Source: Candidatus Gottesmanbacteria bacterium (lineage in GTDB: Bacteria > Patescibacteriota > Microgenomatia > JAMCYU01). From it: a DNA stretch of 64,000 nucleotides. The position numbers and the translations under genes were made by a program. Below, piece by piece: positions 24,359 to 37,576 of the stretch; the first letter of the stretch is position 1, and each line of letters starts with the position of its first letter. The stretch is taken from NCBI GenBank assembly GCA_043801155.1, contig JAZDMI010000021.1, forward strand, positions 2,683-66,682, written 5' to 3'. The notes beneath the pieces were generated by a model. It had not been told where the DNA came from. It saw only the letters and a list, made by a program, of their open reading frames with translations, and did not search any database.

Positions 24359-24380
24359 ATTTAAACTTGTTCTCGAGCTT

Positions 24381-24454
24381 CAGGATTTATTGACATAAGA
24401 AAGATATTCTACACATTCAAGTTATAATATACAAATCCTGACTAATTCCCACAT
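24381..24454 (-). repeat. copy 1 of an approximately 75-nt promoter plus start-codon module (reading on the minus strand: TTGTAT, 17 nt, TAGAAT ... ATGTCAATAAATCCTGAA, then a stop after 11 codons)
   Basis: About 85% identical to 25968-26041. Confidence 0.7.
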
Positions 24455-25198: not shown

Positions 25199-25570
25199 TT
25201 ATAATTTGGGGAAAATTCCCGAGCTCATCACTTCAATAGCTCTAAGAATAGCTTCCCGGGATTCTTTAGTAGGTTGCACGTCGTCAATAATTGAATCATT
25301 TAGTTTGTATTTTGGCAATAATCTTCTGGCCGCGGCAATAAATTGTGTCTCGAATTCCATTGTCATTTCTCTATTAGGAACACTTTCGAAACCCGGAGAA
25401 TTAAGTATTTCCAGATATGTTTTTGCAGTTCTGACATTACCTTTCAGAGCATCTTGATCTAAAAGAAGCGTAGAACTTCCCCAAGGATCCCTTTCTAATA
25501 ACTTTTGGGCGACGACCCGATCATAAACTTCTGCACGTATATTTTTAAATGTTTCACTGGCATTTGACAT
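25199..25570 (-). CDS. hypothetical small protein, paralogue A of the tandem pair
   Basis: About 40% identity to 25620..25982 ('DPxxxSxLxLDQxAL...YLEILNSxGxExxPxR...RLxPKYxL'); start placed at the ATG (MSNASE) homologous to the MSINPE/MAINPE starts. Confidence 0.5.
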   Translation of the reverse strand: MSNASETFKNIRAEVYDRVVAQKLLERDPWGSSTLLLDQDALKGNVRTAKTYLEILNSPGFESVPNREMTMEFETQFIAAARRLLPKYKLNDSIIDDVQPTKESREAILRAIEVMSSGIFPKL

Positions 25571-25619
25571 AAGAGGCACATTCTACCTTATTTAGGAAAA
25601 AAAGTATTCCCCTTTAAAT

Positions 25620-25982
25620 TTATTTTTGATTATTAGCTATATATAGAAAAACACCTGCCCGGCAAATTTGGTCTGGTTTGATTTTTTCTAAATAATCCGG
25701 CTTAAGTCCGTATTTTGGTATTAATCTCGAAACGGCATCAATTAAAGATGTCTCACGTTTTAAAAAATCTGCCCGATCAGGAAAGTTCTCATAGCCGGAT
25801 GAATTTAAAATTTCGATAATAGCTTTTGATACCATAACGTGTTCGATTAAGGCAAACTGGTCTAGGATAAGAGAACTTCTATTACAAGGATCCGGAACAA
25901 GGACTGATCTCGCCAGGTAAATATCAGTCATGATCTCAGGTGTTAAACCTAGTTGTTCTAGAGTTTCAGGATTTATTGCCAT
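25620..25982 (-). CDS. hypothetical small protein, paralogue B
   Basis: See paralogue A; its start codon lies inside repeat copy 2. Confidence 0.5.
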   Translation of the reverse strand: MAINPETLEQLGLTPEIMTDIYLARSVLVPDPCNRSSLILDQFALIEHVMVSKAIIEILNSSGYENFPDRADFLKRETSLIDAVSRLIPKYGLKPDYLEKIKPDQICRAGVFLYIANNQK

Positions 25983-26041
25983 AAGAGAGATATTCTACAT
26001 ATTTGAGTTATAATATACAAATTCTGCCAAATTCCCATCTC
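25968..26041 (-). repeat. copy 2 of the promoter plus start module (TTGTAT, 17 nt, TAGAAT ... ATGGCAATAAATCCTGAA = MAINPE start of 25620..25982)
   Basis: Aligns base-by-base with 24381-24454. Confidence 0.7.
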
Positions 26042-26151: not shown

Positions 26152-26183
26152 TTGACAAAATATCGTTAATATGTTAACATATT
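26152..26183 (+). promoter_or_regulatory. Fic promoter with overlapping 16-bp perfect palindrome (candidate operator); near-leaderless start
   Basis: TTGACA(26152), 17 nt, TAACAT; palindrome AATATGTTAACATATT 26168-26183 abuts the GTG/ATG start; CGTTAAT half-site repeats at about 26112, 26143, 26164 and 26195. Confidence 0.45.
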
Positions 26184-27056
26184 GTGATGAGATTAACGCG
26201 GTTACAGGTGATTTCTGAACTGTTTGCCCAGTACCAGACAAAAAAAATAAACAAAGAATCTCTTCTTTCTATGGTCGATGATGTGGAAATTGCAGAGAGG
26301 GTCTACAACTCCAATGCCATAGAAAACTCGACACTCACCTTGCCCGAAACGGAAAAAATCCTGCTTCAGCTTGAAGTGAATAGGCATATATCGCTTAGAG
26401 AAGTTTTTGAGGCAAAAAATTTAGCCCAAGTCTACAACTATATTAAAAATACTGCCCCTCAAAAACCACTTTCCCTAGATATGATTTTATTACTTCATAA
26501 AATCCTGCTTACCAATATCCGTGATGAAGTTGCAGGACAGTTTCGTACGGGAAACGAAATGGTGCGGGTAGGAAATCACATCGGCATACCCTCGGAATTT
26601 ATAAGTCAAAGGATTCAAGAAATGCTCGTTCAATATAATTCAGACATGGAAATTTCCTTTATTCATAAAATTGGCCGTTTACATGCGGAGTTTGAAAGTA
26701 TTCACCCTTTTATTGACGGAAATGGCAGGATCGGACGAGTTCTTAATAACTATTTACTTATCCGTGAAGGATTTCCTCCGATTATCGTTAGAAATAAAGA
26801 TAAAGAAACTTATTATGATGCCCTGCGTTCATATGACACTTCGCATAATTTTAAACCAATGATGCGCATAGTTGAGTTAGCTGTTTTAGAATCTTTTCAT
26901 AAACGTCTGGCTTACCTTGAGGGACAGCGGATAATTCCTCTTACTGAATATGCGGCTACTCAAAAAAGATCTTTCCATACTCTTTTAAATTCAAGCCGTC
27001 GTCAAACTATTCCTGCTTTTCGCGAGAAAGGCGTCTGGAAAATCGGAGTAAAATAG
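26184..27056 (+). CDS. Fic/Doc family protein, class II-like with N-terminal inhibitory motif
   Basis: 'HPFIDGNGRIGR' Fic active-site motif; N-terminal 'SNAIEN' fits the (S/T)xxxE(G/N) autoinhibitory motif. Confidence 0.85.
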   Translation: MMRLTRLQVISELFAQYQTKKINKESLLSMVDDVEIAERVYNSNAIENSTLTLPETEKILLQLEVNRHISLREVFEAKNLAQVYNYIKNTAPQKPLSLDMILLLHKILLTNIRDEVAGQFRTGNEMVRVGNHIGIPSEFISQRIQEMLVQYNSDMEISFIHKIGRLHAEFESIHPFIDGNGRIGRVLNNYLLIREGFPPIIVRNKDKETYYDALRSYDTSHNFKPMMRIVELAVLESFHKRLAYLEGQRIIPLTEYAATQKRSFHTLLNSSRRQTIPAFREKGVWKIGVK

Positions 27057-27065
27057 GAGAAAATC

Positions 27066-27104
27066 AAAAAAGTCAAAAGAGAGGAAAGAGGAGAGAGAAA
27101 AATT
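27066..27104 (+). repeat. GA-rich leader repeat, copy 1 (upstream of the GNAT gene)
   Basis: aaaaagtcaaaagagaggaaagaggagagagaaaaattt; near-identical copy at 27584-27623. Confidence 0.6.
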
Positions 27105-27106
27105 TA

Positions 27107-27577
27107 ATGAAAATAAATAAACAAATAAAAATCGAAAAACTTACCGAGAAGAGGTTTAATGAAGCGGTTAATTTGGTTTTGGTCGCCAACCTTGATACGC
27201 GGGAAGAAATTGAACATCACCTAAAACATCTGGATGCCCATTATATTGCCCTTGATAATGATAAAATTGTCGGAGTTATCGGTTGGTATCAGGATAATGT
27301 TCATTATGCCAATGAGGCTATGGGTGATAAATTTCCCGGAGAAGAGGCCTACTGGGTGGGATTTTTTACCACTGATAAAAATTACCGGAGGCAGGGAATT
27401 GGTTTTGCCCTGCTTCAAAAATTGGAGCAGGTAATAAAAGAAAAAGGAGAGGATAAAATTTGGGTATCCTCGGTGCCGGAAACAAAAGACTATTATCAAA
27501 GACAAGGATTTGAATTAGTTTTAATGGGATATATCAACGGCAACCAAAAATGTTTTATGGTTAAAAAACTTCAGTAA
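27107..27577 (+). CDS. GNAT family N-acetyltransferase
   Basis: 'YRRQGIGFALL' acetyl-CoA binding motif A. Confidence 0.7.
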   Translation: MKINKQIKIEKLTEKRFNEAVNLVLVANLDTREEIEHHLKHLDAHYIALDNDKIVGVIGWYQDNVHYANEAMGDKFPGEEAYWVGFFTTDKNYRRQGIGFALLQKLEQVIKEKGEDKIWVSSVPETKDYYQRQGFELVLMGYINGNQKCFMVKKLQ

Positions 27578-27583
27578 AAATTA

Positions 27584-27623
27584 AAAAAGTCAGAAGAGAG
27601 AGGAAAGAAGAGAGAGGAAAATT
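27584..27623 (+). repeat. GA-rich leader repeat, copy 2 (upstream of hsdM)
   Basis: aaaaaagtcagaagagagaggaaagaagagagaggaaaatt. Confidence 0.6.
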
Positions 27624-29099
27624 ATGTTTGAACAATCATTTAAAAATATTGATGATATTCTTCACCGGGATGCCGGATGCGCCACGGAATTAGATTATAT
27701 AGAACAAACTTCATGGATTCTATTCTTGAAATACCTTGATGATTTAGAGGAAACAAAAAGGAAAGAAGCGGTTTTAAAAAATAGACAATATGAATATATT
27801 ATTGCTCCTGAATTTCGCTGGAGCGCTTGGGCGGAACCAAAAACGAAAGATGGCAAATTAGATATGAATAAGGCGTTAACCGGAGACGATCTAAGAGACT
27901 TTGTAAATTTAAAACTTTTTCCATATCTTAAGAAATTTAAAATCGACAATAACGAGAATCAAACAACTATTGAATATAAAATTGGAGAAATTTTCAGTGA
28001 GCTAAAAAACAGGATTGAAAGCGGATACAGACTTCGTGAAATTCTTAACATTGTAGATACGATGCATTTTCGAACCGATAGCGATAAACACGAACTCTCA
28101 CATCTTTATGAAGCTAAAATTAAGAACATGGGAAATGCCGGACGAAACGGCGGAGAATATTACACTCCTCGTCCGCTTATTAAAACGATAGTTAAGGTGG
28201 TAATCCCAAAGATTGGCGATACTATATATGATGGAGCCTGCGGATCTGCCGGATTTCTAGTAGAGTCTTTTGATTATCTTAAACAAAGTAAAGAATTATC
28301 TACCTCAGAATCCGTAAAGCTACAAAATAATACTTTTTACGGTAAGGAAATAAAATCACTTGCATATATTATCGGTGTTATGAATATGATTCTTCATGGT
28401 ATTGAAGCGCCGAATATTCTCCATACAAATACGCTTGCTCAAAACATCAATGATATCGAGGAAAAAGATCGGGTTGACGTAATCCTTACGAATCCGCCAT
28501 TTGGTGCAGGAATAGGTCGGGAAATTCAGCAAAATTTTCCGATAAAAACCGGCGAGACGGCATATCTTTTCCTCCAACACTTTATCAAAATGCTCAAAGC
28601 CGGAGGAAAAGCCGGAGTGGTGATTAAAAATACTTTTCTTTCTAATACTGATAACGCATCCGCTTCGCTTCGTAAACGTCTTCTTGAGAGTTGTAATCTT
28701 CACACCGTGCTTGATTTGCCTGGCGGCGTCTTTACGGGAGCAGGTGTAAAAACCGTGGTATTGTTTTTTGAAAAAGGCTCGCCAACCAAAAAAGTATGGT
28801 TCTATCAGTTAAACCTTGACCGCAATCTAGGCAAAGGTAATCCCTTAAGCGAAGCGGATCTATCAGAATTCGTCGAACTGCAAAAAACCAAAGCAGGTAG
28901 CAAAAATTCTTGGAGCGTAGACATAAAAGATATTAATCAAACAACATTTGATTTATCGGTAAAGAATCCAAACAAAGGGAGAGAAGTAACCCTACGCGAA
29001 CCGAAAGAGATTTTGGAGGGAATGAGGAAGCTAGACAAGGAAAGTGAAAATACATTTAAGATTATTAAAAACATATTAAATACTGGAATAAATGAATAA
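27624..29099 (+). CDS. hsdM: type I restriction-modification system, N6-adenine DNA methyltransferase subunit
   Basis: 'LTNPPFGAG' motif IV, 'YDGACGSAGFL' motif I, HsdM N-terminal domain. Confidence 0.9.
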   Translation: MFEQSFKNIDDILHRDAGCATELDYIEQTSWILFLKYLDDLEETKRKEAVLKNRQYEYIIAPEFRWSAWAEPKTKDGKLDMNKALTGDDLRDFVNLKLFPYLKKFKIDNNENQTTIEYKIGEIFSELKNRIESGYRLREILNIVDTMHFRTDSDKHELSHLYEAKIKNMGNAGRNGGEYYTPRPLIKTIVKVVIPKIGDTIYDGACGSAGFLVESFDYLKQSKELSTSESVKLQNNTFYGKEIKSLAYIIGVMNMILHGIEAPNILHTNTLAQNINDIEEKDRVDVILTNPPFGAGIGREIQQNFPIKTGETAYLFLQHFIKMLKAGGKAGVVIKNTFLSNTDNASASLRKRLLESCNLHTVLDLPGGVFTGAGVKTVVLFFEKGSPTKKVWFYQLNLDRNLGKGNPLSEADLSEFVELQKTKAGSKNSWSVDIKDINQTTFDLSVKNPNKGREVTLREPKEILEGMRKLDKESENTFKIIKNILNTGINE

Positions 29100-29730
29100 T
29101 TTATTAGCCTTGTTAGAGAAATATCAGACCCAAAATATTATCGCCGTCATAGCTTTAATATTGGCTTATTTAGCGTACAGAAAATCGGTTATTGATGAGT
29201 ATAGGAGTTGGTTGGATCTGGCAAAATCTTTCCAACACGAATTGAATTACGCAAAATATTGGATAGGAAATAGTTATGAAAAGATGATGAGTATAGATTG
29301 GTCGAATCCCTCCAGATTTGTTTATCCTCTTACCGCCGAAGCCGCGAAAGCGTTAATTTGGAAAGGACATCCGCCAAAGAGAATATTCCCAGATGATTTT
29401 TTTGATAAATTAGCTATATATAACGAACGTATTCAGGCATTTAACCATTTTTTAATGATTCAAGGAATCAATTATGTAGTGGCGGAAGTTGATAATAAAA
29501 ATGAAAAAATTTCAGAAAAAGCAAAGCATATTAATTATATCATCCATAATGATCTTATAGGTAGCCAGGATAATTATCACTTACACAATCTTTATAATTA
29601 TTTTAGTTGTCAATTGAAAATGATTGAAAAAGCAGATCTTTTGCTGATTCCATGGTATTTTAAATATCCTGAACGAATAGTTCTTGCTACTATTTTTATT
29701 TATATTATAGTTGATTATTTTATTCAGTGA
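29092..29730 (+). CDS. hypothetical membrane-associated protein embedded between hsdM and hsdS
   Basis: Start overlaps the hsdM stop and stop overlaps the hsdS start (translational coupling); N- and C-terminal hydrophobic helices; no known motif. Confidence 0.55.
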   Translation: MNNLLALLEKYQTQNIIAVIALILAYLAYRKSVIDEYRSWLDLAKSFQHELNYAKYWIGNSYEKMMSIDWSNPSRFVYPLTAEAAKALIWKGHPPKRIFPDDFFDKLAIYNERIQAFNHFLMIQGINYVVAEVDNKNEKISEKAKHINYIIHNDLIGSQDNYHLHNLYNYFSCQLKMIEKADLLLIPWYFKYPERIVLATIFIYIIVDYFIQ

Positions 29731-30884
29731 TTATGAAAACCAACTGGCAAACAAAAAAACTCGAAGATGTAGCAAATGTTCATGGTGGTGGTACTCCACC
29801 AACCAGTCACCCAGAATATTTTCAAGGAAATATAAATTGGTATTCTCCAACTGAGATACCTAAATTCGAAGTTACAACGCTCAAAGAAAGTCAGAAAAAA
29901 ATTTCCGATTCTGCAATAAAATTTACTACTATTTCAAGAACAAATTCAGTCCTTTTAACAAGCAGAGCTACAATTGGTACGGTTGGTATTTTGTCAACTG
30001 CTTCCGGATATAGTCAGGGCATAAAAGGAATCGAACCGGGTCCCGAACTAGACTCGTGGTATCTAGCGCATTGGTTGAGATCAAATAAAGATGAGATTAT
30101 TAATAAGGCTTCTGGTACAACCTTTAAGGAAATTAGTACAAGTGAAATAAAAAAGCTAGAAATTCCTATCCCTCCAATTGCTCAGCAAAAGAAAATTGTT
30201 AATTCCATAGAGAATATCTTGGGAAAAATTGAAAAGGCAAAAGAGAATACAGAGAAAAATCTGCAAAACGCCAAAGCTCTTTTTGAATCATATTTACAAA
30301 GTATTTTTGCGAATCCAGGAAAAGATTGGGAAGAGAAAAGATTAGGTGATGTTTGTATGGTCATTGCTGGTCAATCACCGGAAGGAAAATTCTATAACAA
30401 ATCGGGTAGGGGTTTACCTTTCTATCAGGGAAAAAAAGAATTTGAAGAAAGATATCTTGGGAAACCAACAACATGGACAACAGACATTACCAAAGAGGCG
30501 CAAAATGGTGATATTTTAATGTCAGTTCGAGCCCCTGTGGGACCTATTAATTTTGCAACTCAAAAAATTTGCATCGGTCGGGGTCTTACCGCAATTCGAG
30601 CCGGAAAAGATATTGATGAAAACTTTTTATTTTATAATTTACTCTCAAAAGAAAAAGAAATCATTGGTAATGCCGGAGCTGTATTTGCATCAATCAATAA
30701 ATCCGACATTGAGAGTTTAAAATTATTTTTACCATCTCTTCCCGAACAAAAATCTATTGATATAAAACTTGACACAATTTATGCCGAAACAAAAAAACTG
30801 GAAGCAATTTATAAACAAAAATTAGCTGATTTAGAAGAGCTAAAAAAATCGGTTTTGAGAAAAGCATTTAAAGGAGAATTGTAA
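29727..30884 (+). CDS. hsdS: type I R-M specificity subunit
   Basis: Two target-recognition domains separated by conserved coiled-coil repeats ('IAQQKKIV..IE..L', 'LPEQKSI...KL'). Confidence 0.85.
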   Translation: MIMKTNWQTKKLEDVANVHGGGTPPTSHPEYFQGNINWYSPTEIPKFEVTTLKESQKKISDSAIKFTTISRTNSVLLTSRATIGTVGILSTASGYSQGIKGIEPGPELDSWYLAHWLRSNKDEIINKASGTTFKEISTSEIKKLEIPIPPIAQQKKIVNSIENILGKIEKAKENTEKNLQNAKALFESYLQSIFANPGKDWEEKRLGDVCMVIAGQSPEGKFYNKSGRGLPFYQGKKEFEERYLGKPTTWTTDITKEAQNGDILMSVRAPVGPINFATQKICIGRGLTAIRAGKDIDENFLFYNLLSKEKEIIGNAGAVFASINKSDIESLKLFLPSLPEQKSIDIKLDTIYAETKKLEAIYKQKLADLEELKKSVLRKAFKGEL

Positions 30885-30886
30885 TT

Positions 30887-31606
30887 ATGAAATATATAAA
30901 AAAGCTTAATATGGTTTGTTTTAACTTACTGGAACTGAAGACGCTATATAAGACTGACAAAGTAATAAAAATTCTTATAGAAGCAAATAAAACAAGGTGT
31001 AATATCGTTAATTCATCTAAAGAACAATCTAAAAAGATCGTAGATTCAGTCGTGAAAGGAGATTTAAAACAAAAGGAGGAAATTGAAATATTCTCGGCGT
31101 TAAGCTTATGTGCCTTATTTTTCGAGAATGATAGTTTTATAGGTTTCGTTTTGAAGGACGGCTATGATGTAGGAAAAAACCCAATACAAACATTAGAAGG
31201 TTTGAAAAAGGCTGCGAAAGAAGATACTCTTACTGATTTTGCAATTATCACCAAAAGTGGAATGCGAGAATTTCAGCTAAAACAATTTTATAGACAAAAA
31301 CTGGAGACGGAAGACCTTTTTAACTTTATAAAAGAAAAAATTGAACATTATGGTGGTAATTTTGGTACCACTGCTTTGTTATTCTCGGTTAGAGGTGATG
31401 GAATAGGACCTTGTCAAAGCAATATTTCTTTTAAAGAAATTCACGAGAGGCTTTGCAAACTTAATTTAGACAGAAATGGATTAATTTTGATTTGGTATAA
31501 TGATGGCAACAAAAAACAGGTGATAATTGAAGTTTATCCTGATTTATCGGCATGCCAAAAAGAAACAGGTATTCACGATCAAACAAAAAATACCCTATAT
31601 AATTAG
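30887..31606 (+). CDS. hypothetical protein embedded between hsdS and hsdR (same position as PrrC-type genes, but no P-loop)
   Basis: 3-nt spacing from hsdS and 11 nt before hsdR; no Walker A or other recognisable motif. Confidence 0.55.
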   Translation: MKYIKKLNMVCFNLLELKTLYKTDKVIKILIEANKTRCNIVNSSKEQSKKIVDSVVKGDLKQKEEIEIFSALSLCALFFENDSFIGFVLKDGYDVGKNPIQTLEGLKKAAKEDTLTDFAIITKSGMREFQLKQFYRQKLETEDLFNFIKEKIEHYGGNFGTTALLFSVRGDGIGPCQSNISFKEIHERLCKLNLDRNGLILIWYNDGNKKQVIIEVYPDLSACQKETGIHDQTKNTLYN

Positions 31607-31617
31607 ATCTAAAAATT

Positions 31618-33972
31618 ATGAACGAAGCAGAAACACGAGCCGAATATATTGATCCAAAACTGAAAGCTAGCGGTTGGGGAGAAGTTGAGGGATCAAAAGT
31701 ATTACGGGAATATCGTATCACCGAAGGACGGATTTTGGTTGGTGGAATACGTGCTAAACCGGAAATTGCTGATTATATCCTCGTATACAAAAACCAAAAA
31801 CTGGCAATTATTGAAGCAAAGCCGGATGAATCTGCCGTTACAGAGGGTGTCGCTCAAGCAAAAGTCTACGCCCAGAAGATGCAGATTGATTATACCTACT
31901 CAACCAACGGTAAAGAAATTTATCAAATTTCCATGAAATCCGGGAAAGAAGAGATTGTAGATGCGTTTTCGACCCCGGATGAGTTATGGAAAAAAGTGTA
32001 TTCAGATCAAAATGAATGGAAAGAGAAATTTGCTTCAATTCCTCTTGAGGGAGAATTAGGGAAACGATACTACCAGGAATCAGCCATTAATAACGTTATG
32101 AATGCGATTGCTGAAGATAAGAAACGAGTGCTACTTACTATGGCAACAGGAACCGGTAAGACAGCGATTGCATTTCAGACCTCTTGGAAGCTATATCAAA
32201 CGCGTTGGACTTTACAACGTGATGGAAATCGGCGTCCGAGAATTCTTTTTCTTGCCGATAGAAATATTCTTGCGGATCAAGCGTTTAATACCTTCGGTGC
32301 TTTTCCGGAAGATGCATTAGTTCGAATTAATCCTCTTGATATTCGGAGGAAGGGATTAGTTCCGATGAACGGAAGTATCTTTTTCACTATTTTTCAAACA
32401 TTTATGAGCGGACCGCAGGGAACACCTTATTTTGGTGATTATCCTCCTGATTTTTTTGATTTTATTGTCATTGATGAATGTCATCGTGGAGGAGCTAATG
32501 ATGAGGGAAACTGGCGCGGAATTTTAGAGTATTTTTCTCCAGCAGTTCAGCTTGGATTAACGGCCACACCAAAAAGAAGAGATAACGTAGATACATATAG
32601 ATATTTTGGCGATCCGGTATATATTTATTCACTTAAGGAAGGGATTAATGATGGATTTTTGACACCTTTTAAGGTGAAACGTATCCAAACAACCCTTGAT
32701 GAATATGTGTACACATCTGACGACCAAGTAATTGAAGGAGAAGTTGAAGCCGGTAAGGTATATAAAGAGCCTGATTTTAATAAAATCATAGAAATAAAAG
32801 AGCGCGAGGCAAAACGAGTTCAATTGTTGCTTGAGAATATAAACCAGAACGAGAAAACAATTGTTTTTTGTGCAACCCAGGATCATGCCCTAGCGGTACG
32901 GGATCTGGTAAATCAATATAAAAAAAGTAAAGATCCTTTTTACTGCGTCCGGGTAACGGCTAATGACGGAGCGCGTGGCGAGCAATATTTACGAGAATTT
33001 CAGGATAATGAAAAGACGATTCCTACGATATTAACCACTTCACAAAAGCTTTCTACTGGTGTTGATGCCAGAAATATCCGTAATATCGTTCTTATGCGTC
33101 CGGTTAATACCATGATCGAATTTAAACAGATTATTGGGCGTGGAACTCGGTTATTTGACGGAAAAGAATATTTTACAATCATTGATTTTGTTGATGCGTA
33201 TAAACTTTTTTTAGATCCTGAATGGGACGGCGAACCGATAGCGAATATTTGCCCAAAGTGTAACCAGGATCCCTGTATTTGCGAAAAAACTCCGCCGAAA
33301 GTTTGTCCTATTTGCGGGCAAAGACCGTGTATTTGTATTAGAGAACCAAGAATTTGTCCAATATGTGGAAAATTCCCATGTGAATGTGAATCAAAAAAGA
33401 AAATAAAAATAAAACTGCGCGATGGCAAAGAGCGAGAGATTCAACATATGATTTCTACTTCTTTTTGGGGGGCAGATGGTAAACCGATGTCGTCGGAGGA
33501 GTTTATTCAAAGCCTTTATGGAGTATTGCCGGATCTGTTTAAAAACGAAGAGGAACTTCGGAATATATGGTCAAATCCTGTGACAAGGAAACGATTTTTG
33601 GAACGGCTTTTTGATATTGGCATTGATTTAGAACAGATAGAAAATATTACCAAGATTGTTAATGCTGAACAATGTGATTTTTATGATGTGCTCTTGTATC
33701 TTGCATTTAGCAATCCACTCATTACACGTAAACAGCGGGCTGAGAAGAATAAAAATCATATTTTTGAAAATTTGTCTGATAAAGAAGGAGAATTTCTCAA
33801 CTTCGTACTGAAAAAATATGAAGAAACCGGATTTGAAGAACTTGACGAGGAGAAATTACCAATACTTCTGAATCTAAAATACCACGCTATTGCAGACGCA
33901 GAAGAAGCACTAGGAAATGTAGAAAATATTAGAGCAACATTCTTAGGATTTCAGGAAGATCTCTATAGCTAG
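31618..33972 (+). CDS. hsdR: type I R-M restriction subunit, short form with a Cys-rich triple repeat insertion
   Basis: 'MNEAETRAEYIDPKL' HsdR N-terminus, PD-(D/E)xK 'D...IIEAK', helicase motifs 'TGTGKT', 'VIDECHRG', 'IIGRGTR'; 'CPKCNQDPCIC / CPICGQRPCIC / CPICGKFPCEC' at about 33250-33390. Confidence 0.88.
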   Translation: MNEAETRAEYIDPKLKASGWGEVEGSKVLREYRITEGRILVGGIRAKPEIADYILVYKNQKLAIIEAKPDESAVTEGVAQAKVYAQKMQIDYTYSTNGKEIYQISMKSGKEEIVDAFSTPDELWKKVYSDQNEWKEKFASIPLEGELGKRYYQESAINNVMNAIAEDKKRVLLTMATGTGKTAIAFQTSWKLYQTRWTLQRDGNRRPRILFLADRNILADQAFNTFGAFPEDALVRINPLDIRRKGLVPMNGSIFFTIFQTFMSGPQGTPYFGDYPPDFFDFIVIDECHRGGANDEGNWRGILEYFSPAVQLGLTATPKRRDNVDTYRYFGDPVYIYSLKEGINDGFLTPFKVKRIQTTLDEYVYTSDDQVIEGEVEAGKVYKEPDFNKIIEIKEREAKRVQLLLENINQNEKTIVFCATQDHALAVRDLVNQYKKSKDPFYCVRVTANDGARGEQYLREFQDNEKTIPTILTTSQKLSTGVDARNIRNIVLMRPVNTMIEFKQIIGRGTRLFDGKEYFTIIDFVDAYKLFLDPEWDGEPIANICPKCNQDPCICEKTPPKVCPICGQRPCICIREPRICPICGKFPCECESKKKIKIKLRDGKEREIQHMISTSFWGADGKPMSSEEFIQSLYGVLPDLFKNEEELRNIWSNPVTRKRFLERLFDIGIDLEQIENITKIVNAEQCDFYDVLLYLAFSNPLITRKQRAEKNKNHIFENLSDKEGEFLNFVLKKYEETGFEELDEEKLPILLNLKYHAIADAEEALGNVENIRATFLGFQEDLYS

Positions 33973-34085
33973 TTTTTTGCATTTTCTGTCCTTCCTAATT
34001 CAATCAATTTTTATTATGGCTTTTAATTAGAATTAGTGTTATAATAATAGTGGTTTAAGCGGTCTGCGTTTGGCAGACGACTATT

Positions 34086-34110
34086 GCAGCCTATCAGGGC
34101 TGCTTTTTTT
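34086..34110 (+). terminator. rho-independent terminator-like hairpin after hsdR
   Basis: GCAGCC tatcag GGCTGC followed by T7; preceded by a second hairpin, GTCTGC..GCAGAC. Confidence 0.6.
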
Positions 34111-34930: not shown

Positions 34931-34959
34931 TTTGCCTTTTTGGGACGGCTGATTTAAAT
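34931..34959 (+). promoter_or_regulatory. conserved promoter-like element, family member (TTGCCT, 17 nt, TAAATC)
   Basis: Part of the recurring TTGC[A/C]T, 17 nt, TAnAnT family; first of a tandem pair upstream of 35006. Confidence 0.4.
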
Positions 34960-34965
34960 CACATT

Positions 34966-34994
34966 TTTGCATTTTCGTTTCTTCTGACCTAAAC
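34966..34994 (+). promoter_or_regulatory. conserved promoter-like element (TTGCAT, 17 nt, TAAACT)
   Basis: Second of the tandem pair; 11 nt before the ATG at 35006. Confidence 0.45.
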
Positions 34995-35005
34995 TTCAAG
35001 TAGAT

Positions 35006-35242
35006 ATGAATAGTCACGTAAGGTTTATAAAGGCAATTAATATCTGCCTTAAATATGACGAAATAAACACCCATTTACTTCAAAGAAAATTAATGATCGG
35101 TTATTCTACCGCACATATAATTTTCAAGAAACTAAAGGAATTAAAAGTTATAACCGGAGAAAAATATATCTATAATCCCTTTGGAAAAGTTAAAGTTGGA
35201 ACAGTTGACAAAAAGACTGCCAGGTTTTATTTAGTCAACTAA
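35006..35242 (+). CDS. small winged-helix DNA-binding protein resembling the FtsK gamma domain
   Basis: 'THLLQRKLMIGYSTAHIIFKKLKELKVITGE' resembles the FtsK-gamma 'SLLQRRLRIGYNRAARLIDQME..G.I'. Confidence 0.5.
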   Translation: MNSHVRFIKAINICLKYDEINTHLLQRKLMIGYSTAHIIFKKLKELKVITGEKYIYNPFGKVKVGTVDKKTARFYLVN

Positions 35243-35261
35243 TAAATTTTGTAAATTTCTT

Positions 35262-35290
35262 TGCCTTTTTGAGTATGATGATCTAAACTG
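35262..35290 (+). promoter_or_regulatory. conserved promoter-like element (TTGCCT, 17 nt, TAAACT)
   Basis: Family member; ends 8 nt before the GTG at 35299. Confidence 0.35.
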
Positions 35291-35298
35291 GGATTAGA

Positions 35299-35814
35299 GT
35301 GGATATTGATATTAGTGGTCTTTTCAGAAAATCTTTCATTGACTCCTTACCCACCTTATTTTATTTATTAATTCCAATAATAATAATTTCAGGTCTGGTT
35401 ATTGCCATAAAAATTGGTTATTATTTTTACCGCCAGCATATCTATAATAAGGCCGGGTTGGATAAAATTGATAAAATGCCCGGTTACGTTTTTGAAGAAT
35501 ACCTTACAAATCTGTTTGCCCGGTTAGGTTACAGAGTAAATCATATTGGTAAGTTTGGAGATTTTGGGGGAGATTTAATTATCGAAAAAGATGGAATGAA
35601 AACATTAGTTCAGGCGAAAAGATCAAGTGATAGAATAAGAGAGAAAGCAATTCAGGAAGCCGTAACTGCAAAAGAGTACTACCATTGTGATAAAGCTATG
35701 GTAGTTACTAATAATTATTTTTATAAACATGCGTGGACGTTGGGCAAGGGAACAAATATAGACTTATGGGCAAGAAATAAATTGGCTGAAGTTATCTCTC
35801 AGAATATAAATTAA
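35299..35814 (+). CDS. membrane-anchored Mrr-cat (restriction endonuclease-like) domain protein, GTG start
   Basis: N-terminal TM helix; 'YVFEEYLTNLFARLGYRV...GDFGGDLIIEKDGMKTLVQAKR' matches the Mrr_cat D...(E/D)xK core. Confidence 0.6.
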   Translation: MDIDISGLFRKSFIDSLPTLFYLLIPIIIISGLVIAIKIGYYFYRQHIYNKAGLDKIDKMPGYVFEEYLTNLFARLGYRVNHIGKFGDFGGDLIIEKDGMKTLVQAKRSSDRIREKAIQEAVTAKEYYHCDKAMVVTNNYFYKHAWTLGKGTNIDLWARNKLAEVISQNIN

Positions 35815-35819
35815 TTCTT

Positions 35820-35848
35820 TTGCCTTTTTGGGTCTGCTGATTTAAACT
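35820..35848 (+). promoter_or_regulatory. conserved promoter-like element (TTGCCT, 17 nt, TAAACT)
   Basis: Upstream of 35868; SD AGGA present. Confidence 0.45.
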
Positions 35849-35867
35849 AATATTATAGGAATATTCA

Positions 35868-36584
35868 ATGATTAAAATTAATACCACATTTATTAATACT
35901 TCTTCTGATAATTCTTCAAAAGGTTCTCCGGGGAATATACAATTTAACTTTAAATCATCATATTCTTTTAACAACAAATTATTATTTCATTTAGATTTTA
36001 AAGATCCTTCTCTCTATTTGCTATTATTTACAAATTTATCAACTATTTATTTTGCCTATATAGAACACTGGAATCTTTTAACAGTGATGTGGATATACTG
36101 GTTCCAGAGTATAATCATTGGTTTATTCACGTTTGTTAGACTAATAAACTTGCGAAATTATAATTCTCGGGCAATCTCTTTTATTATTAGTTATGGAATA
36201 TTTCATATGGGATTTCTGGTTTTTCTATTGTTAGGATTTTTAGGCAATGCTACTAGGGGAATAGTCTCTGAATTTGGTTTTGTTTTGATGTCCGCCTTTT
36301 TATTTTTCGTCAACCACTTATTTTCTTATTTTTATAATAAAGATCGTGATCAGGAAGGATTTATTTTTCACAAAGATGTAGATAGAATAATCTCGATTTC
36401 ATATATGCGTATAATACCCATGCATATAATAATTATTCTCGGGCAAATTATAACTTCAATTTTTTTATCGGAGGCAAGATACACTCTTTTTCTCTTTTTA
36501 TTTTTAAAGACTTATGCTGATTTATATTCCCATACACTTAAGCATACATCTGCTGCTTCGCCAATAGATGTAAAGAATTCTTAA
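35868..36584 (+). CDS. polytopic membrane protein, hypothetical
   Basis: At least 5 hydrophobic helices; no motif. Confidence 0.5.
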   Translation: MIKINTTFINTSSDNSSKGSPGNIQFNFKSSYSFNNKLLFHLDFKDPSLYLLLFTNLSTIYFAYIEHWNLLTVMWIYWFQSIIIGLFTFVRLINLRNYNSRAISFIISYGIFHMGFLVFLLLGFLGNATRGIVSEFGFVLMSAFLFFVNHLFSYFYNKDRDQEGFIFHKDVDRIISISYMRIIPMHIIIILGQIITSIFLSEARYTLFLFLFLKTYADLYSHTLKHTSAASPIDVKNS

Positions 36585-36596
36585 ATTTTATAATTT

Positions 36597-36625
36597 TTGC
36601 ATTTTCTGCCATTTTGATCTAGACT
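36597..36625 (+). promoter_or_regulatory. conserved promoter-like element (TTGCAT, 17 nt, TAGACT)
   Basis: Upstream of 36647. Confidence 0.45.
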
Positions 36626-36646
36626 TCGTAAACAAGAGGACCATAT

Positions 36647-37519
36647 ATGACTTTTAATCCAAATGCTGTTTTCATTTCTCCTTCATCCATCTCTGATTTT
36701 AAAACATGTCCACAAACTTATTATTATCGGAATGTCTATAGAAATCCGAAGACTGGATTAAAAATACAAATAATTAATCCAAAACTAGCGCTTGGTGCAA
36801 CAGTGCATGATATATTAGCTCAATTCCTACACACCCAGGGAATAGAAAAAACTAAAGATCAATTACTCAATATCCTTCAGAGATATTGGGGACAGATTAC
36901 TGGTGAAAAAGGAGGATTTAAAACAGAAGAGGAAGAAAAACAATACAAAGAAAGGGCATCAAAAATGTTGGATATTTTTTGGGGAAATAACCATTTTAGG
37001 GAGGTACAACCGGTAAAACTACCCGATTTCCCAAAGGTATATTTTGATGACGATTTAATTCTCACTGGAAAACTTGACTGGATTGAGCTAGAGACAGAAA
37101 ATAAATATCACATCATTGACTTTAAAACTGGAGAAAACGAAGAACGAAGCGATTCTATGCAATTACCTATTTATGCCGTTCTTGCTTCAAATATTTTAAA
37201 AACCTCTGAAATAAAAGCAAGCTATTGGTATCTTGATAGAGATGCCGACTTGAAAAAATTCGATCTGCCCGATTTAAAAGAAACAACAGAAAAACTTAAA
37301 AAAATTGGTTATGTAATTAAAAATAGTCGGTTAACAAATTCTTTTAAATGCAGTTCGGGATACGAGTCGTGTTGGTCTTGTAAAGATTTGCTATCCATTA
37401 GCAATGGAAAGGGTAAACTTGTTTCTGTTGATTACAATCGTAAACAAGAAGTTTATATAATTCCTCCAACAGAAGATAAGCCTATATTAGAAAAACCTAT
37501 TGATGACATTCCTTTCTAA
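36647..37519 (+). CDS. PD-(D/E)XK nuclease, Cas4/AddB-like with predicted Fe-S cluster cysteines
   Basis: N-terminal 'SPSSISDFKTCPQTYYY' (first Cys), 'DWIELETENKYHIIDFKTG' D...E.K catalytic core, C-terminal 'CSSGYESCWSC' Cys triad. Confidence 0.6.
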   Translation: MTFNPNAVFISPSSISDFKTCPQTYYYRNVYRNPKTGLKIQIINPKLALGATVHDILAQFLHTQGIEKTKDQLLNILQRYWGQITGEKGGFKTEEEEKQYKERASKMLDIFWGNNHFREVQPVKLPDFPKVYFDDDLILTGKLDWIELETENKYHIIDFKTGENEERSDSMQLPIYAVLASNILKTSEIKASYWYLDRDADLKKFDLPDLKETTEKLKKIGYVIKNSRLTNSFKCSSGYESCWSCKDLLSISNGKGKLVSVDYNRKQEVYIIPPTEDKPILEKPIDDIPF

Positions 37520-37547
37520 AGAATATGTTTATATCTTCTTCTTCTTT

Positions 37548-37576
37548 TTGCATTTTCTGACTTTCTGATTTAGACT
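37548..37576 (+). promoter_or_regulatory. conserved promoter-like element (TTGCAT, 17 nt, TAGACT)
   Basis: Upstream of 37613. Confidence 0.45.

What the first reader, a model, noticed from the sequence alone, without database searches (positions are those of the whole stretch)
27624..33972. Type I R-M operon with two translationally coupled unknown genes embedded between hsdM/hsdS and hsdS/hsdR
hsdM, a 212-aa membrane-associated ORF, hsdS, a 239-aa ORF and hsdR are arranged with overlapping or abutting start and stop codons (29092/29099, 29727/29730, 30884/30887). Type I loci are known to host embedded defence modules at exactly these positions; PrrC/RloC-type anticodon nucleases between hsdS and hsdR are one example. 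Both inserted proteins here lack any P-loop or nuclease motif I can recognise, so they are candidates for a novel R-M-associated accessory function such as abortive infection or anti-restriction sensing.
Basis: partly seen in the sequence, partly recalled or inferred. Interest (0 to 1): 0.55.

Follow-up and report, generated by a model that had tools for sequence, protein, structure and literature searches.

The report
Accessory genes embedded in restriction operon
An intact type I restriction-modification operon of a candidate-phyla-radiation bacterium carries two conserved, unclassified passenger genes in its two inter-gene slots: a membrane-anchored helical-bundle protein found almost only next to restriction systems, and a probable small nuclease. 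This adds two new candidate families to the already known habit of defence genes nesting inside restriction operons.

Summary
Five co-directional ORFs (27624-33972) overlap or sit at most 11 nt apart. HsdM, HsdS and HsdR form a complete EcoAI/FtnUII-family (type IB) system.

Both inserts are real genes under purifying selection. Neither matches Pfam, NCBIfam, PHROGs, PADLOC v2 or PDB sequences, and neither is a fragment of an Hsd subunit.

- **orfB (212 aa).** It is TM helix, four-helix bundle, TM helix, with the bundle predicted to face the cytoplasm. The family is rare. In 28 of 36 informative loci it lies beside R-M or methyltransferase genes of every type (I, ISP, IIG-like, II, III). It stays 47-63% identical where the flanking HsdM is only 26-30% identical, so it behaves as a mobile, R-M-linked cassette.
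- **orfD (239 aa).** It belongs to a family of about 185 clusters with invariant E67 and D117 and a (Q/E)130-x-K132 triad. The spacing matches the Mrr-type D-x12-QxK(R)Y nuclease motif. Support is at motif level only. It occurs both embedded and free-standing in variable islands.

Related operons swap cassettes exactly at the two slots, so the two genes are independent of each other.

Embedding of defence genes in type I operons is already known (PrrC, TgvAB, Ronin, Payne et al. 2024). These are new candidate members, and their function is untested.

The parts
27624..29099 (+). hsdM, type I methyltransferase subunit (491 aa). NPPF motif is present.
   Evidence: PF02384 at 1.5e-65 and PF12161 HsdM_N. 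PADLOC MTase_I at 1.4e-158.
29092..29730 (+). orfB (212 aa; GenBank MFH0863994.1, 'hypothetical protein'). Architecture: TM helix, four-helix bundle, TM helix. Member of a rare R-M-linked family.
29727..30884 (+). hsdS, specificity subunit with two target-recognition domains (385 aa).
   Evidence: PF01420, two stretches, 1.5e-44. PADLOC Specificity_I at 4.3e-90.
30887..31606 (+). orfD (239 aa; MFH0863996.1, 'hypothetical protein'). Candidate PD-(D/E)xK / Mrr-like nuclease-fold protein.
   Evidence: 185 representative clusters. Invariant E67, D117 and P218, with Q/E130 and K132. No Pfam or PADLOC hit for any of 73 members. dN/dS 0.21 against L009. The motif aligns with the Mrr_cat D..QxKRY motif at hhalign P=0.022, which is not significant.
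31618..33972 (+). hsdR, EcoAI/FtnUII-family (type IB) restriction subunit (784 aa). It has its own D..EAK nuclease motif, an SF2 helicase and an EcoEI_R_C domain.
   Evidence: NF046051 at 809.6 bits, full length. PF04851, PF08463 and PF13588.
26184..27056 (+). Fic-domain gene upstream. Possibly the first gene of the same transcription unit.
   Evidence: PF02661 at 1.5e-19. PADLOC PDC-S04 at 3.7e-36 and SoFic. The best promoter-like site in the region lies at 26152-26180.
27107..27577 (+). GNAT acetyltransferase gene between Fic and hsdM.
   Evidence: PF00583 at 4.5e-14. The same 30-nt purine-rich leader precedes this gene (27075-27104) and hsdM (27594-27623) (family D8).
34086..34110 (+). Terminator-like hairpin followed by a T-run, 114 nt after the hsdR stop codon.
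   Evidence: 7-bp stem with 5 G-C pairs, then TTTTTTT. This is a consensus match only.

Best explanation
**Shown.** The locus is a complete, apparently functional type IB (EcoAI-family) restriction-modification operon. Its two inter-gene junctions, hsdM|hsdS and hsdS|hsdR, act as cassette slots, and each is occupied by an independent, horizontally mobile accessory gene.

**Inferred for orfB.** It is a membrane protein with an N-out/C-out topology and a cytoplasm-facing four-helix bundle carrying a conserved polar patch (N111-E112-R113, N118, Q124, N148, H152). It is co-expressed with R-M enzymes of many types. I think it most likely acts as an R-M-linked second-line defence module working at the membrane. 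That would mean abortive-infection-type membrane damage or interference with incoming DNA, operating when or where restriction fails. It would not be a stoichiometric subunit of the R-M enzyme.

**Inferred for orfD.** It is most likely a small Mg-dependent PD-(D/E)xK endonuclease of the Mrr type (E...D-x12-QxK). It would act as a self-contained nuclease defence, either type IV-like restriction or an Abi nuclease, that complements the type I enzyme. This is what the GmrSD-like TgvAB system does inside the Vibrio cholerae type I operon.

**Status of each step.** The gene structure, conservation, cassette behaviour and R-M linkage are shown. Both biochemical activities and any defence phenotype are inferred.
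For: **The R-M system is intact.**

**Cassette behaviour.**
- Window and L004 are collinear through hsdM, orfB and the hsdS start (27619-29761, 73% nt identity). Homology breaks exactly at the hsdS stop (30885) and resumes at the hsdR start (31616). L004 has an 87-aa two-TM ORF in that slot.
- Window and L009 are collinear through the hsdS end, orfD and hsdR (30729-33195, 78%). In L009 the hsdM-hsdS slot holds a 173-aa ORF, DUF2130 and an OLD nuclease instead of orfB.

**orfB linkage to R-M.** Of 36 informative distinct loci:
- about 20 lie inside type I operons, in the orders M-B-S-R, M-B-x-S-R or M-S-B-R;
- 8 lie beside other R-M or methyltransferase genes: type ISP, IIG-like, Mod+Res, MvaI/BcnI, and N4/N6 or C5 methyltransferases;
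- 4 lie beside reverse transcriptase, OLD or SLOG genes;
- 4 show no R-M gene nearby.

**orfB mobility.** It is 47-63% identical to the window copy where the adjacent HsdM is only 26-30% identical.

**orfB structure.** AF2 pLDDT is 83.7, with a continuous TM1-to-alpha1 helix and a terminal TM2. K+R counts are 0.8 | 2.6 | 2.5 | 0 across N-tail | after TM1 | before TM2 | C-tail, which places the bundle in the cytoplasm. Twelve columns are invariant across 29 members.

**orfD.**
- E67 and D117 are invariant; Q/E130 and K132 are nearly so (72 of 73 for K132).
- These residues fall on a predicted alpha-beta-beta-beta-alpha-beta core.
- The spacing and the 'QxK(R/Q)-Y' tail match Mrr_cat proteins.
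- dN/dS is 0.21.
- Free-standing homologues lie in variable or defence-like islands: M78+PIN, caspase/SocA/Fic, and ParB-MTase/LexA/serine recombinase.

**Precedents.** Payne et al. 2024, TgvAB and Ronin.
Against: - There is no functional data of any kind.
- Four orfB loci show no R-M gene nearby, and two lie next to reverse transcriptases. Linkage to R-M is therefore strong but not absolute.
- Part of the context survey rests on my own ORF calling and iterated HMMs. Many contigs are short.
- Only two orfB sources carry names (Gottesmanbacteria, Paceibacterota), so the taxonomic spread is uncertain.
Confidence: 0.5

Rival explanations
1. orfB is a Ronin/PrrC-type guard effector. It would be a latent membrane toxin held inactive by the HsdM-HsdS (or other R-M) complex. 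Phage anti-restriction proteins such as Ocr or ArdA would release it when they block the R-M enzyme, killing the infected cell.
For: - Tight operon linkage and start/stop overlaps with hsdM and hsdS.
- orfB lies directly adjacent to hsdS in most type I loci.
- The R-M-adjacent fraction (about 78%) resembles the almost exclusively embedded PrrC. It does not resemble systems that are embedded only occasionally.
- RonA is a precedent: a membrane effector linked to hsdS and hsdM, toxic alone and neutralised by HsdMS.
- Related operons also carry a small two-TM ORF in the other slot.
Against: - orfB accompanies R-M enzymes with unrelated architectures: MvaI/BcnI, type III, type ISP and C5 methyltransferases. 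It also moves between HsdM families that are only 26-30% identical. A specific inhibitory protein-protein contact is hard to reconcile with this.
- Some copies have no R-M gene nearby.
- There is no homology to RonA (61 aa, one TM helix), and hsdR is present here.
Confidence: 0.22
2. orfB is a membrane tether or scaffold. It would position R-M enzymes at the cytoplasmic membrane, where foreign DNA enters, and would improve restriction without any killing activity.
For: - The two terminal TM anchors and cytoplasm-facing bundle leave a conserved polar surface available for binding.
- The association covers nuclease/methylase systems of all R-M types.
- From my own knowledge, not checked here: type I enzymes such as EcoKI have been reported to associate with the membrane.
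Against: - The partner-diversity objection applies as for the guard model.
- Copies occur beside reverse transcriptase and OLD genes, and some are free-standing.
- Nothing indicates a DNA- or protein-binding motif.
Confidence: 0.1
3. One or both inserts are non-defence cargo. They would be genes of unrelated or selfish function that persist because the R-M junctions tolerate insertions.
For: - More than half of the genes embedded in type I R-M, BREX, DISARM and Hma systems have no assigned function.
- Neither family matches any defence library.
- Most orfD homologues are not embedded in R-M operons.
Against: - There is strong purifying selection.
- orfB is repeatedly and independently placed in R-M operons of different types.
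- Neighbours of the free-standing orfD copies are typical of defence or mobile islands.
- No transposase or integrase lies in or next to the cassettes in the window.
Confidence: 0.15
4. The two ORFs are split or decayed fragments of HsdS, HsdM or HsdR domains.
For: None found. The only resemblance is that orfD, like the HsdR N-terminus, carries a PD-(D/E)xK-type motif.
Against: - HsdM, HsdS and HsdR are each full length against their models.
- hhalign of the orfB and orfD profiles against HsdM, HsdS and HsdR alignments gives probabilities of 0.1-0.3%.
- hhalign of the orfD profile against two separate alignments of HsdR N-terminal regions (EcoAI-type, first 150 residues; the other HsdR family, first 260 residues) gives probabilities of 0.2% and 0.7%.
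- Both families exist as full-length genes away from any hsd gene.
Confidence: 0.01

Closest known systems
PrrC anticodon nuclease embedded in the EcoprrI type IC operon (and RloC relatives)
   Same: A single accessory gene sits in the hsdS-hsdR slot of a type I operon, as orfD does. PrrC is almost exclusively found embedded (Payne et al.), as orfB is. It provides the paradigm of a second-line defence riding in an R-M operon.
   Different: PrrC has an ABC-type ATPase (P-loop) domain plus an anticodon-nuclease domain. orfD has no Walker A motif and no PADLOC PrrC hit. orfB is a membrane helical bundle. There is no sequence relationship to either.
Ronin (RonA + HsdS + HsdM; Silas et al., bioRxiv 10.1101/2023.04.06.535777)
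   Same: A membrane protein tightly linked to hsdS and hsdM, proposed as a membrane-disrupting suicide effector. This is the nearest functional analogue for orfB, and for the 87-aa two-TM ORF in L003-5.
   Different: RonA is 61 aa with one TM helix, is found only with HsdMS lacking HsdR, and is enterobacterial. orfB is 212 aa with two TM helices and a folded bundle. It sits in a complete R-M operon and also accompanies non-type-I R-M systems. No homology is detectable.
TgvAB, the GmrSD-like type IV system embedded in the Vibrio cholerae VPI-2 type I operon (PMC11411939)
   Same: A nuclease-type defence nested between hsd genes and acting independently of HsdR. It is the model for how orfD could complement the type I enzyme.
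   Different: TgvAB is a two-protein DUF262/DUF1524-type system of much larger proteins. orfD is a single 239-aa protein with an Mrr-like motif. Its activity and target are unknown.
Phage-defence candidates (PDC/HEC) from 'guilt-by-embedding' (Payne et al. 2024; PADLOC-DB v2)
   Same: The same genomic logic applies: uncharacterised genes nested in type I R-M operons. The upstream Fic gene here does match PDC-S04.
   Different: Neither the orfB family nor the orfD family matches any of the 5027 PADLOC models. Both families come mainly from uncultivated (CPR and metagenomic) lineages that RefSeq-based surveys under-sample.
Mrr_cat (PF04471) / PD-(D/E)xK restriction-endonuclease fold
   Same: The family-wide E...D-x12-(Q/E)xK-(R/Q)-Y pattern in orfD has the same spacing and the same Q variant as Mrr_cat proteins. 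The predicted alpha-beta-beta-beta-alpha-beta order also agrees.
   Different: There is no significant profile or fold match. The flanking N- and C-terminal regions, including an invariant YN..N...YP segment, have no counterpart.
Four-helix-bundle sensor domains of chemoreceptors and histidine kinases (4HB_MCP type)

Membership tests
Type I R-M, EcoAI/FtnUII family (type IB) | HsdR matches the family model above the curated cutoff over its full length | tested here: met
   NF046051 scores 809.6 bits against a cutoff of 550, covering residues 1-784 against model positions 1-768. EcoEI_R_C, ResIII and HSDR_N_2 domains are present.
Type I R-M, EcoAI/FtnUII family (type IB) | Separate HsdM (N6-adenine methyltransferase) and HsdS with two target-recognition domains, in the same operon | tested here: met
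   PF02384 and PF12161 in HsdM. PF01420 appears twice in HsdS.
Type I R-M, EcoAI/FtnUII family (type IB) | ATP-dependent restriction and sequence-specific methylation activity | not testable with these tools
   Only motif integrity can be seen: NPPF in HsdM, DECH and D..EAK in HsdR.
PrrC/RloC anticodon nucleases | N-terminal ABC-ATPase domain with a Walker A motif | tested here: not met
   Neither orfB nor orfD contains GxxxxGK[ST] (sequences). There is no AAA or ABC Pfam hit and no PADLOC PrrC hit.
PrrC/RloC anticodon nucleases | Position between hsdS and hsdR of a type I operon | tested here: met
   orfD occupies exactly this slot, as does its 84%-identical homologue in L009.
Ronin (RonA) | Small (about 61 aa) single-TM protein homologous to RonA | tested here: not met
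   orfB is 212 aa with two TM helices and a folded bundle. I judge that no common ancestry with a 61-aa peptide can be claimed.
Ronin (RonA) | Linked to hsdS and hsdM in a locus lacking hsdR | tested here: not met
   hsdR is present and intact in the window and in most orfB loci.
Ronin (RonA) | Toxic when expressed alone, neutralised by HsdMS, triggered by Ocr or ArdA | not testable with these tools
   Requires expression experiments.
PD-(D/E)xK nucleases (Mrr_cat-like) | Conserved acidic residue in helix 1, Asp at the start of strand 2, and (D/E/Q)xK in strand 3 | tested here: met
   E67 in 73 of 73 members, D117 in 73 of 73, position 130 as Q in 64 and E in 9, K132 in 72 of 73. D-x12-QxK has the same spacing as the window's own Mrr_cat protein and eight plasmid Mrr_cat proteins.
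PD-(D/E)xK nucleases (Mrr_cat-like) | Restriction-endonuclease alpha-beta-beta-beta-alpha-beta fold | tested here: inconclusive
PD-(D/E)xK nucleases (Mrr_cat-like) | Significant sequence or profile match to a family of the clan | tested here: not met
   No Pfam hit for any of 73 members. hhalign against a 9-sequence Mrr_cat alignment gives probability 2.2% and P=0.022. No PDB profile hit to a nuclease.
PADLOC phage-defence candidates (PDC/HEC, guilt-by-embedding) | Match to a PADLOC-DB model | tested here: not met
   Zero hits for the window proteins. Zero of 29 orfB members hit any model. Six single-member hits at E 0.0017-0.009 were seen among 73 orfD members and read as noise.
PADLOC phage-defence candidates (PDC/HEC, guilt-by-embedding) | Gene nested on the same strand inside a complete type I R-M operon, not mobilome-related | tested here: met
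   The same embedding recurs in related loci.
SLATT two-TM effector domains | Match to SLATT Pfam models, with an adjacent TM hairpin followed by a helical domain | tested here: not met
   No SLATT hit at E of 0.1 or below. The TM helices lie at opposite termini. One orfB locus has a SLOG gene nearby (L038).
4HB_MCP sensor domain | Extracytoplasmic four-helix bundle between two TM helices, coupled to a cytoplasmic output domain | tested here: not met

The most novel reading that the evidence does not exclude
orfB defines a pan-R-M accessory. It would be a membrane-anchored helical-bundle protein functionally wired to restriction systems of any type. It could be a suicide effector or checkpoint that fires when restriction is blocked or fails. 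Alternatively it could couple restriction to the site of DNA entry. This may be especially relevant in CPR bacteria, whose tiny genomes still retain it. That would be a general 'R-M backup at the membrane' principle, distinct from the HsdMS-specific Ronin and the tRNA-cleaving PrrC.
Probability: 0.2. Interest if true: 0.7.

Novelty: new member of a known kind. Interest (0 to 1): 0.45.

Why it matters
If either gene proves to be a defence function, it adds new families to the set of systems nested inside R-M operons. Both families are absent from Pfam, NCBIfam, PHROGs and PADLOC.

orfB would be the more informative of the two. Its near-exclusive linkage to R-M systems of every type, together with its membrane location, points to a layer of R-M biology that is barely explored: backup killing, or spatial coupling to DNA entry. 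Ronin is the only precedent.

The three related operons (window, L003-5, L009) also give a clean natural example of cassette exchange at both hsd junctions. That is useful for anyone mining 'slots' for new defence genes in uncultivated lineages such as the CPR.

Tried and rejected
**Library and structure searches that found nothing useful**
- Pfam, NCBIfam, PHROGs and PADLOC scans of both proteins, and of 73 and 29 family members: nothing.
- Profile searches of PDB sequences with A3, A5 and A4: no meaningful hit. The best was ASFV I73R at E 0.019 over 40 residues, disregarded.
- Foldseek of the orfB model against BFVD: nothing at E of 0.001 or below.
- The afdb50 library was not available.

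**Hypotheses tested and rejected**
- Split Hsd fragments: rejected. hhalign probabilities against full-length HsdM, HsdS and HsdR alignments are 0.1-0.3%, and 0.2% and 0.7% for orfD against the two HsdR N-terminal alignments.
- orfB as HEPN: the window clade has R113-x5-H119, but H119 is Q, A, E or F in other clades. Rejected.
- orfB as SLATT or a 4HB_MCP member: rejected (see the membership tests).
- orfB and orfD as a two-gene system: rejected, because they co-occur only in the window.
- Internal promoters: the local promoter-like element found downstream of hsdR is absent from 26184-33972.

**Inconclusive or limited searches**
- hhalign of orfD against single PD-(D/E)xK proteins and a 9-sequence Mrr_cat alignment: the motifs align, but the result is not significant.
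- Genome-contig scans for orfD: the first found none and the second found one locus. The alignments A3 and A5 were too diverse for the pattern tool.
- Viral-contig scans for both families: none found. Phage origin is therefore unsupported, but the searches used narrow patterns.

Full report
**1. Observation**

- hsdM 27624-29099
- a 212-aa ORF, here called orfB, 29092-29730
- hsdS 29727-30884
- a 239-aa ORF, here called orfD, 30887-31606
- hsdR 31618-33972

All five are on the + strand. The junction sequences are:
- ATGAATAA, an 8-nt overlap
- GTGA, a 4-nt overlap, with an alternative ATG two codons further on
- TAAttATG, a 2-nt spacer preceded by GGAG
- an 11-nt spacer before hsdR

HsdM (PF02384, 1.5e-65), HsdS (two PF01420 stretches) and HsdR are full length. 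HsdR scores 809.6 bits against a cutoff of 550 for NCBIfam NF046051, the EcoAI/FtnUII family (type IB), and carries ResIII, EcoEI_R_C and its own D..EAK nuclease motif. The source is a Candidatus Gottesmanbacteria (CPR) MAG contig of 272 kb, in which both inserts are annotated 'hypothetical protein'.

**2. The inserts are real genes and are not Hsd fragments**

Neither protein hits Pfam, NCBIfam, PHROGs or PADLOC v2. Both have full-length homologues elsewhere:
- orfB has 30 clusters from protein searches and 36 metagenome loci.
- orfD has 185 representative clusters at E of 0.001 or below.

dN/dS is 0.21 for orfD (window versus L009) and about 0.1 for orfB (window versus L004, with dS saturated). 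Profile-profile comparison of either family with full-length HsdM, HsdS and HsdR alignments gives probabilities of 0.1-0.3%. Comparison of orfD with two separate HsdR N-terminal alignments gives 0.2% and 0.7%.

**3. Two independent cassette slots**

Two metagenomic operons share this type IB backbone, with HsdM about 80% and HsdR 75-82% identical. DNA alignment shows the following.
- Window and L004 are collinear from hsdM through orfB into the hsdS start (27619-29761). Homology is lost exactly at the hsdS stop (30885) and regained at the hsdR start (31616). In that slot L004 has an 87-aa ORF with two hydrophobic helices.
- Window and L009 are collinear from the hsdS end through orfD into hsdR (30729-33195, 78%). 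In L009 the hsdM-hsdS slot holds a 173-aa coiled-coil ORF, DUF2130 and an OLD-family nuclease instead of orfB.

So each junction is a swap site, and orfB and orfD assort independently. They co-occur only in the window.

**4. orfB**

*Structure.* AF2 with a 14-sequence alignment gives a confident model (pLDDT 83.7, pTM 0.75). A long helix (residues 13-59) begins as a hydrophobic TM segment (about 16-30) and continues as bundle helix 1. Three more bundle helices follow (103-130, 138-156, 164-185), and then a C-terminal hydrophobic helix (193-211) that ends the protein. Across the family, K+R counts flanking the TM segments are 0.8 | 2.6 | 2.5 | 0. By the positive-inside rule this predicts N-out/C-out with the bundle in the cytoplasm.

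*Conservation.* Twelve columns are invariant in 29 members: Y29, W57, Y62, G92, N111, E112, R113, F117, N118, Q124, N148 and H152. This gives a conserved polar patch on helices 2-3.

*Context.* I classified 36 informative, distinct loci using precomputed Pfam tables, my own ORF calling with iterated Hsd profiles, and Pfam checks.
- About 20 are inside type I operons, either M-B-S-R or M-B-x-S-R (the 205-220-aa clade) or M-S-B-R (a roughly 250-aa clade with an insertion).
- 8 lie beside other R-M genes. These are a type ISP enzyme (L047), an HSDR_N_2-N6_Mtase fusion plus S (L001), N6_N4 Mod plus a Res helicase (L053), MvaI/BcnI endonucleases (L027, L043), an N6_N4 methyltransferase (L036) and C5 methyltransferases (L029, L049).
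- 4 lie beside reverse transcriptases (L024, L041), an OLD nuclease (L032) or a SLOG gene (L038).
- 4 show no R-M gene nearby. One of these is a truncated remnant between thrS and infC (L055).

*Mobility.* orfB remains 47-63% identical to the window copy in loci where HsdM is only 26-30% identical. It has therefore moved between unrelated R-M families.

*Inference.* orfB is a mobile membrane protein whose selective value is tied to R-M systems in general, but not to one particular partner protein.

**5. orfD**

In a 73-member alignment, E67, D117 and P218 are invariant. K132 is present in 72 of 73 members. Position 130 is Q in 64 members and E in 9. F87, F129, Y155, N205 and N208 are nearly invariant.

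The spacing D-x12-Q-x-K-(R/Q)-Y is the same as in the window's own Mrr_cat protein (35299-35814: GDLIIEKDGMKTLVQAKR) and in eight plasmid Mrr_cat proteins. hhalign aligns exactly these residues, but only at P=0.022 and probability 2%. I therefore treat 'Mrr-like PD-(D/E)xK nuclease' as the most likely reading, supported at motif level only.

*Contexts.*
- L009 has it in the same hsdS-hsdR slot.
- L010/L011 have it free-standing next to an M78 peptidase and a PIN/DUF4411 pair.
- L012 and a 37-kb contig have it near a caspase-like protease, a SocA/Panacea antitoxin and a Fic gene.
- L054 has it between ParB-methyltransferase, LexA-like and SEC-C genes and a large serine recombinase.

No copy of either family was found in viral contigs.

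**6. Surroundings**

The hsd operon sits in a lower-GC stretch (30-36%) with defence-island character.
- Upstream lie a NYN-domain gene, two paralogous unknown ORFs, a Fic gene that matches PADLOC PDC-S04/SoFic, and a GNAT gene.
- Downstream lie NUDIX, an FtsK-gamma-like wHTH gene, a TM-Mrr_cat gene, DUF6498 and a PDDEXK_1/Cas4-like gene.

The strongest promoter-like site lies just upstream of Fic (26152-26180). The only convincing terminator-like hairpin lies 114 nt after hsdR (34086-34103). The same 30-nt purine-rich leader precedes both GNAT and hsdM. The transcription unit may therefore be Fic-GNAT-hsdM-orfB-hsdS-orfD-hsdR. This rests on consensus matches only.

**7. Comparison with what is known**

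Nesting of other defence genes in type I operons is established.
- PrrC is almost exclusively embedded in type I R-M. Payne et al. generalised 'guilt-by-embedding', identifying 145 candidates that are now in PADLOC.
- TgvAB is a GmrSD-like type IV system inside the V. cholerae type I operon and acts independently of HsdR.
- Ronin pairs a 61-aa membrane effector, RonA, with HsdMS. The effector is released by anti-restriction proteins.

orfB works most like Ronin's effector in concept: a membrane protein riding with hsdM and hsdS. It fails every membership feature of Ronin. Its association with all R-M types also argues against a partner-specific caging mechanism. orfD resembles TgvAB and PrrC in placement and Mrr in motif, but it is not a demonstrable member of any of these families.

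**8. Verdict**

The concept is known. Both families are unclassified in every library available here, which makes them new members of a known kind. No function was tested.

My committed mechanisms are as follows.
- orfD is a small Mrr-type endonuclease acting as an autonomous nuclease defence (about 0.5).
- orfB is a membrane-acting second-line module that benefits from co-expression and co-transfer with R-M (about 0.4-0.5). The rivals are a Ronin-like caged toxin (about 0.2) and a membrane tether (about 0.1).

Interest is moderate at 0.45. The pan-R-M linkage of a membrane protein is the part most worth an experiment.

Noticed in passing
window 34931-37574 (+), partial copy at 33974-33994: Six copies of a roughly 30-nt promoter-like element, TTTGC[AC]TTTT-N9-TGAYYTA[AG]A (a TTGCAT-17-TAGACT arrangement). 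One sits before each small gene downstream of hsdR: FtsK-gamma-like, TM-Mrr_cat, DUF6498, PDDEXK_1 and a 71-aa ORF. Seven matches were found in the window against 0.05 expected. None lies inside the Fic-to-hsdR block. The arrangement looks like an array of individually promoted cassettes.
   Followed up: partly
window 27075-27104 and 27594-27623: A 30-nt purine-rich leader (AAAAGAGAGGAAAGAGGAGAGAGAAAAATT) is duplicated at 90% identity immediately before the GNAT and hsdM start codons (family D8). This suggests a shared translation-initiation region and co-transcription of Fic, GNAT and hsdM.
   Followed up: no
window 24367-24451 and 25953-26037; ORFs 25199-25579(-) and 25620-25982(-): An 85-nt repeat (88% identity) marks duplicated divergent promoter regions upstream of the NYN gene and the Fic gene. 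The adjoining minus-strand ORFs of 126 and 120 aa are paralogues (38% identity, E 5e-21) and have no Pfam hit.
   Followed up: partly
window 33253-33387 (HsdR residues 546-590): HsdR carries a Cys-rich insert of three tandem CPxCxxxPCxC units between the helicase and EcoEI_R_C domains. It is absent from the related HsdR proteins of L003 and L006. It may be a zinc-binding module.
   Followed up: partly
window 26184-27056: The Fic-domain gene just upstream of the operon matches PADLOC phage-defence candidate PDC-S04 (3.7e-36) and SoFic (2.1e-29). A GNAT gene follows it. Together they could be a further defence or toxin module in the same transcription unit.
   Followed up: no
L003:2802-3065 (also in L004 and L005): In the orthologous operon, the hsdS-hsdR slot that holds orfD in the window holds an 87-aa ORF with two hydrophobic helices. 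It is a RonA-sized membrane peptide inside a complete type I operon.
   Followed up: no
L013:8624-9082: In another type I family, orfB is followed by a 152-aa ORF with a textbook PD..(E)xK motif (YPDIIV...LLVIEIK) before hsdS. Pfam does not recognise it.
   Followed up: no
L006:6904-7886 (also L007 and L018): A convergent M78-peptidase gene and a 129-aa gene, an ImmA/IrrE-like pair, are inserted between hsdM and orfB. The downstream hsdS appears split into 105-aa and 262-aa ORFs.
   Followed up: no
L049:8217-9797 (-) and L054:8233-8838: L049 encodes a fusion of a LexA DNA-binding domain, an S24 peptidase and a C5 cytosine methyltransferase in one 526-aa protein, next to an orfB homologue. A separate LexA-like gene lies near the orfD homologue in L054.
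   Followed up: no
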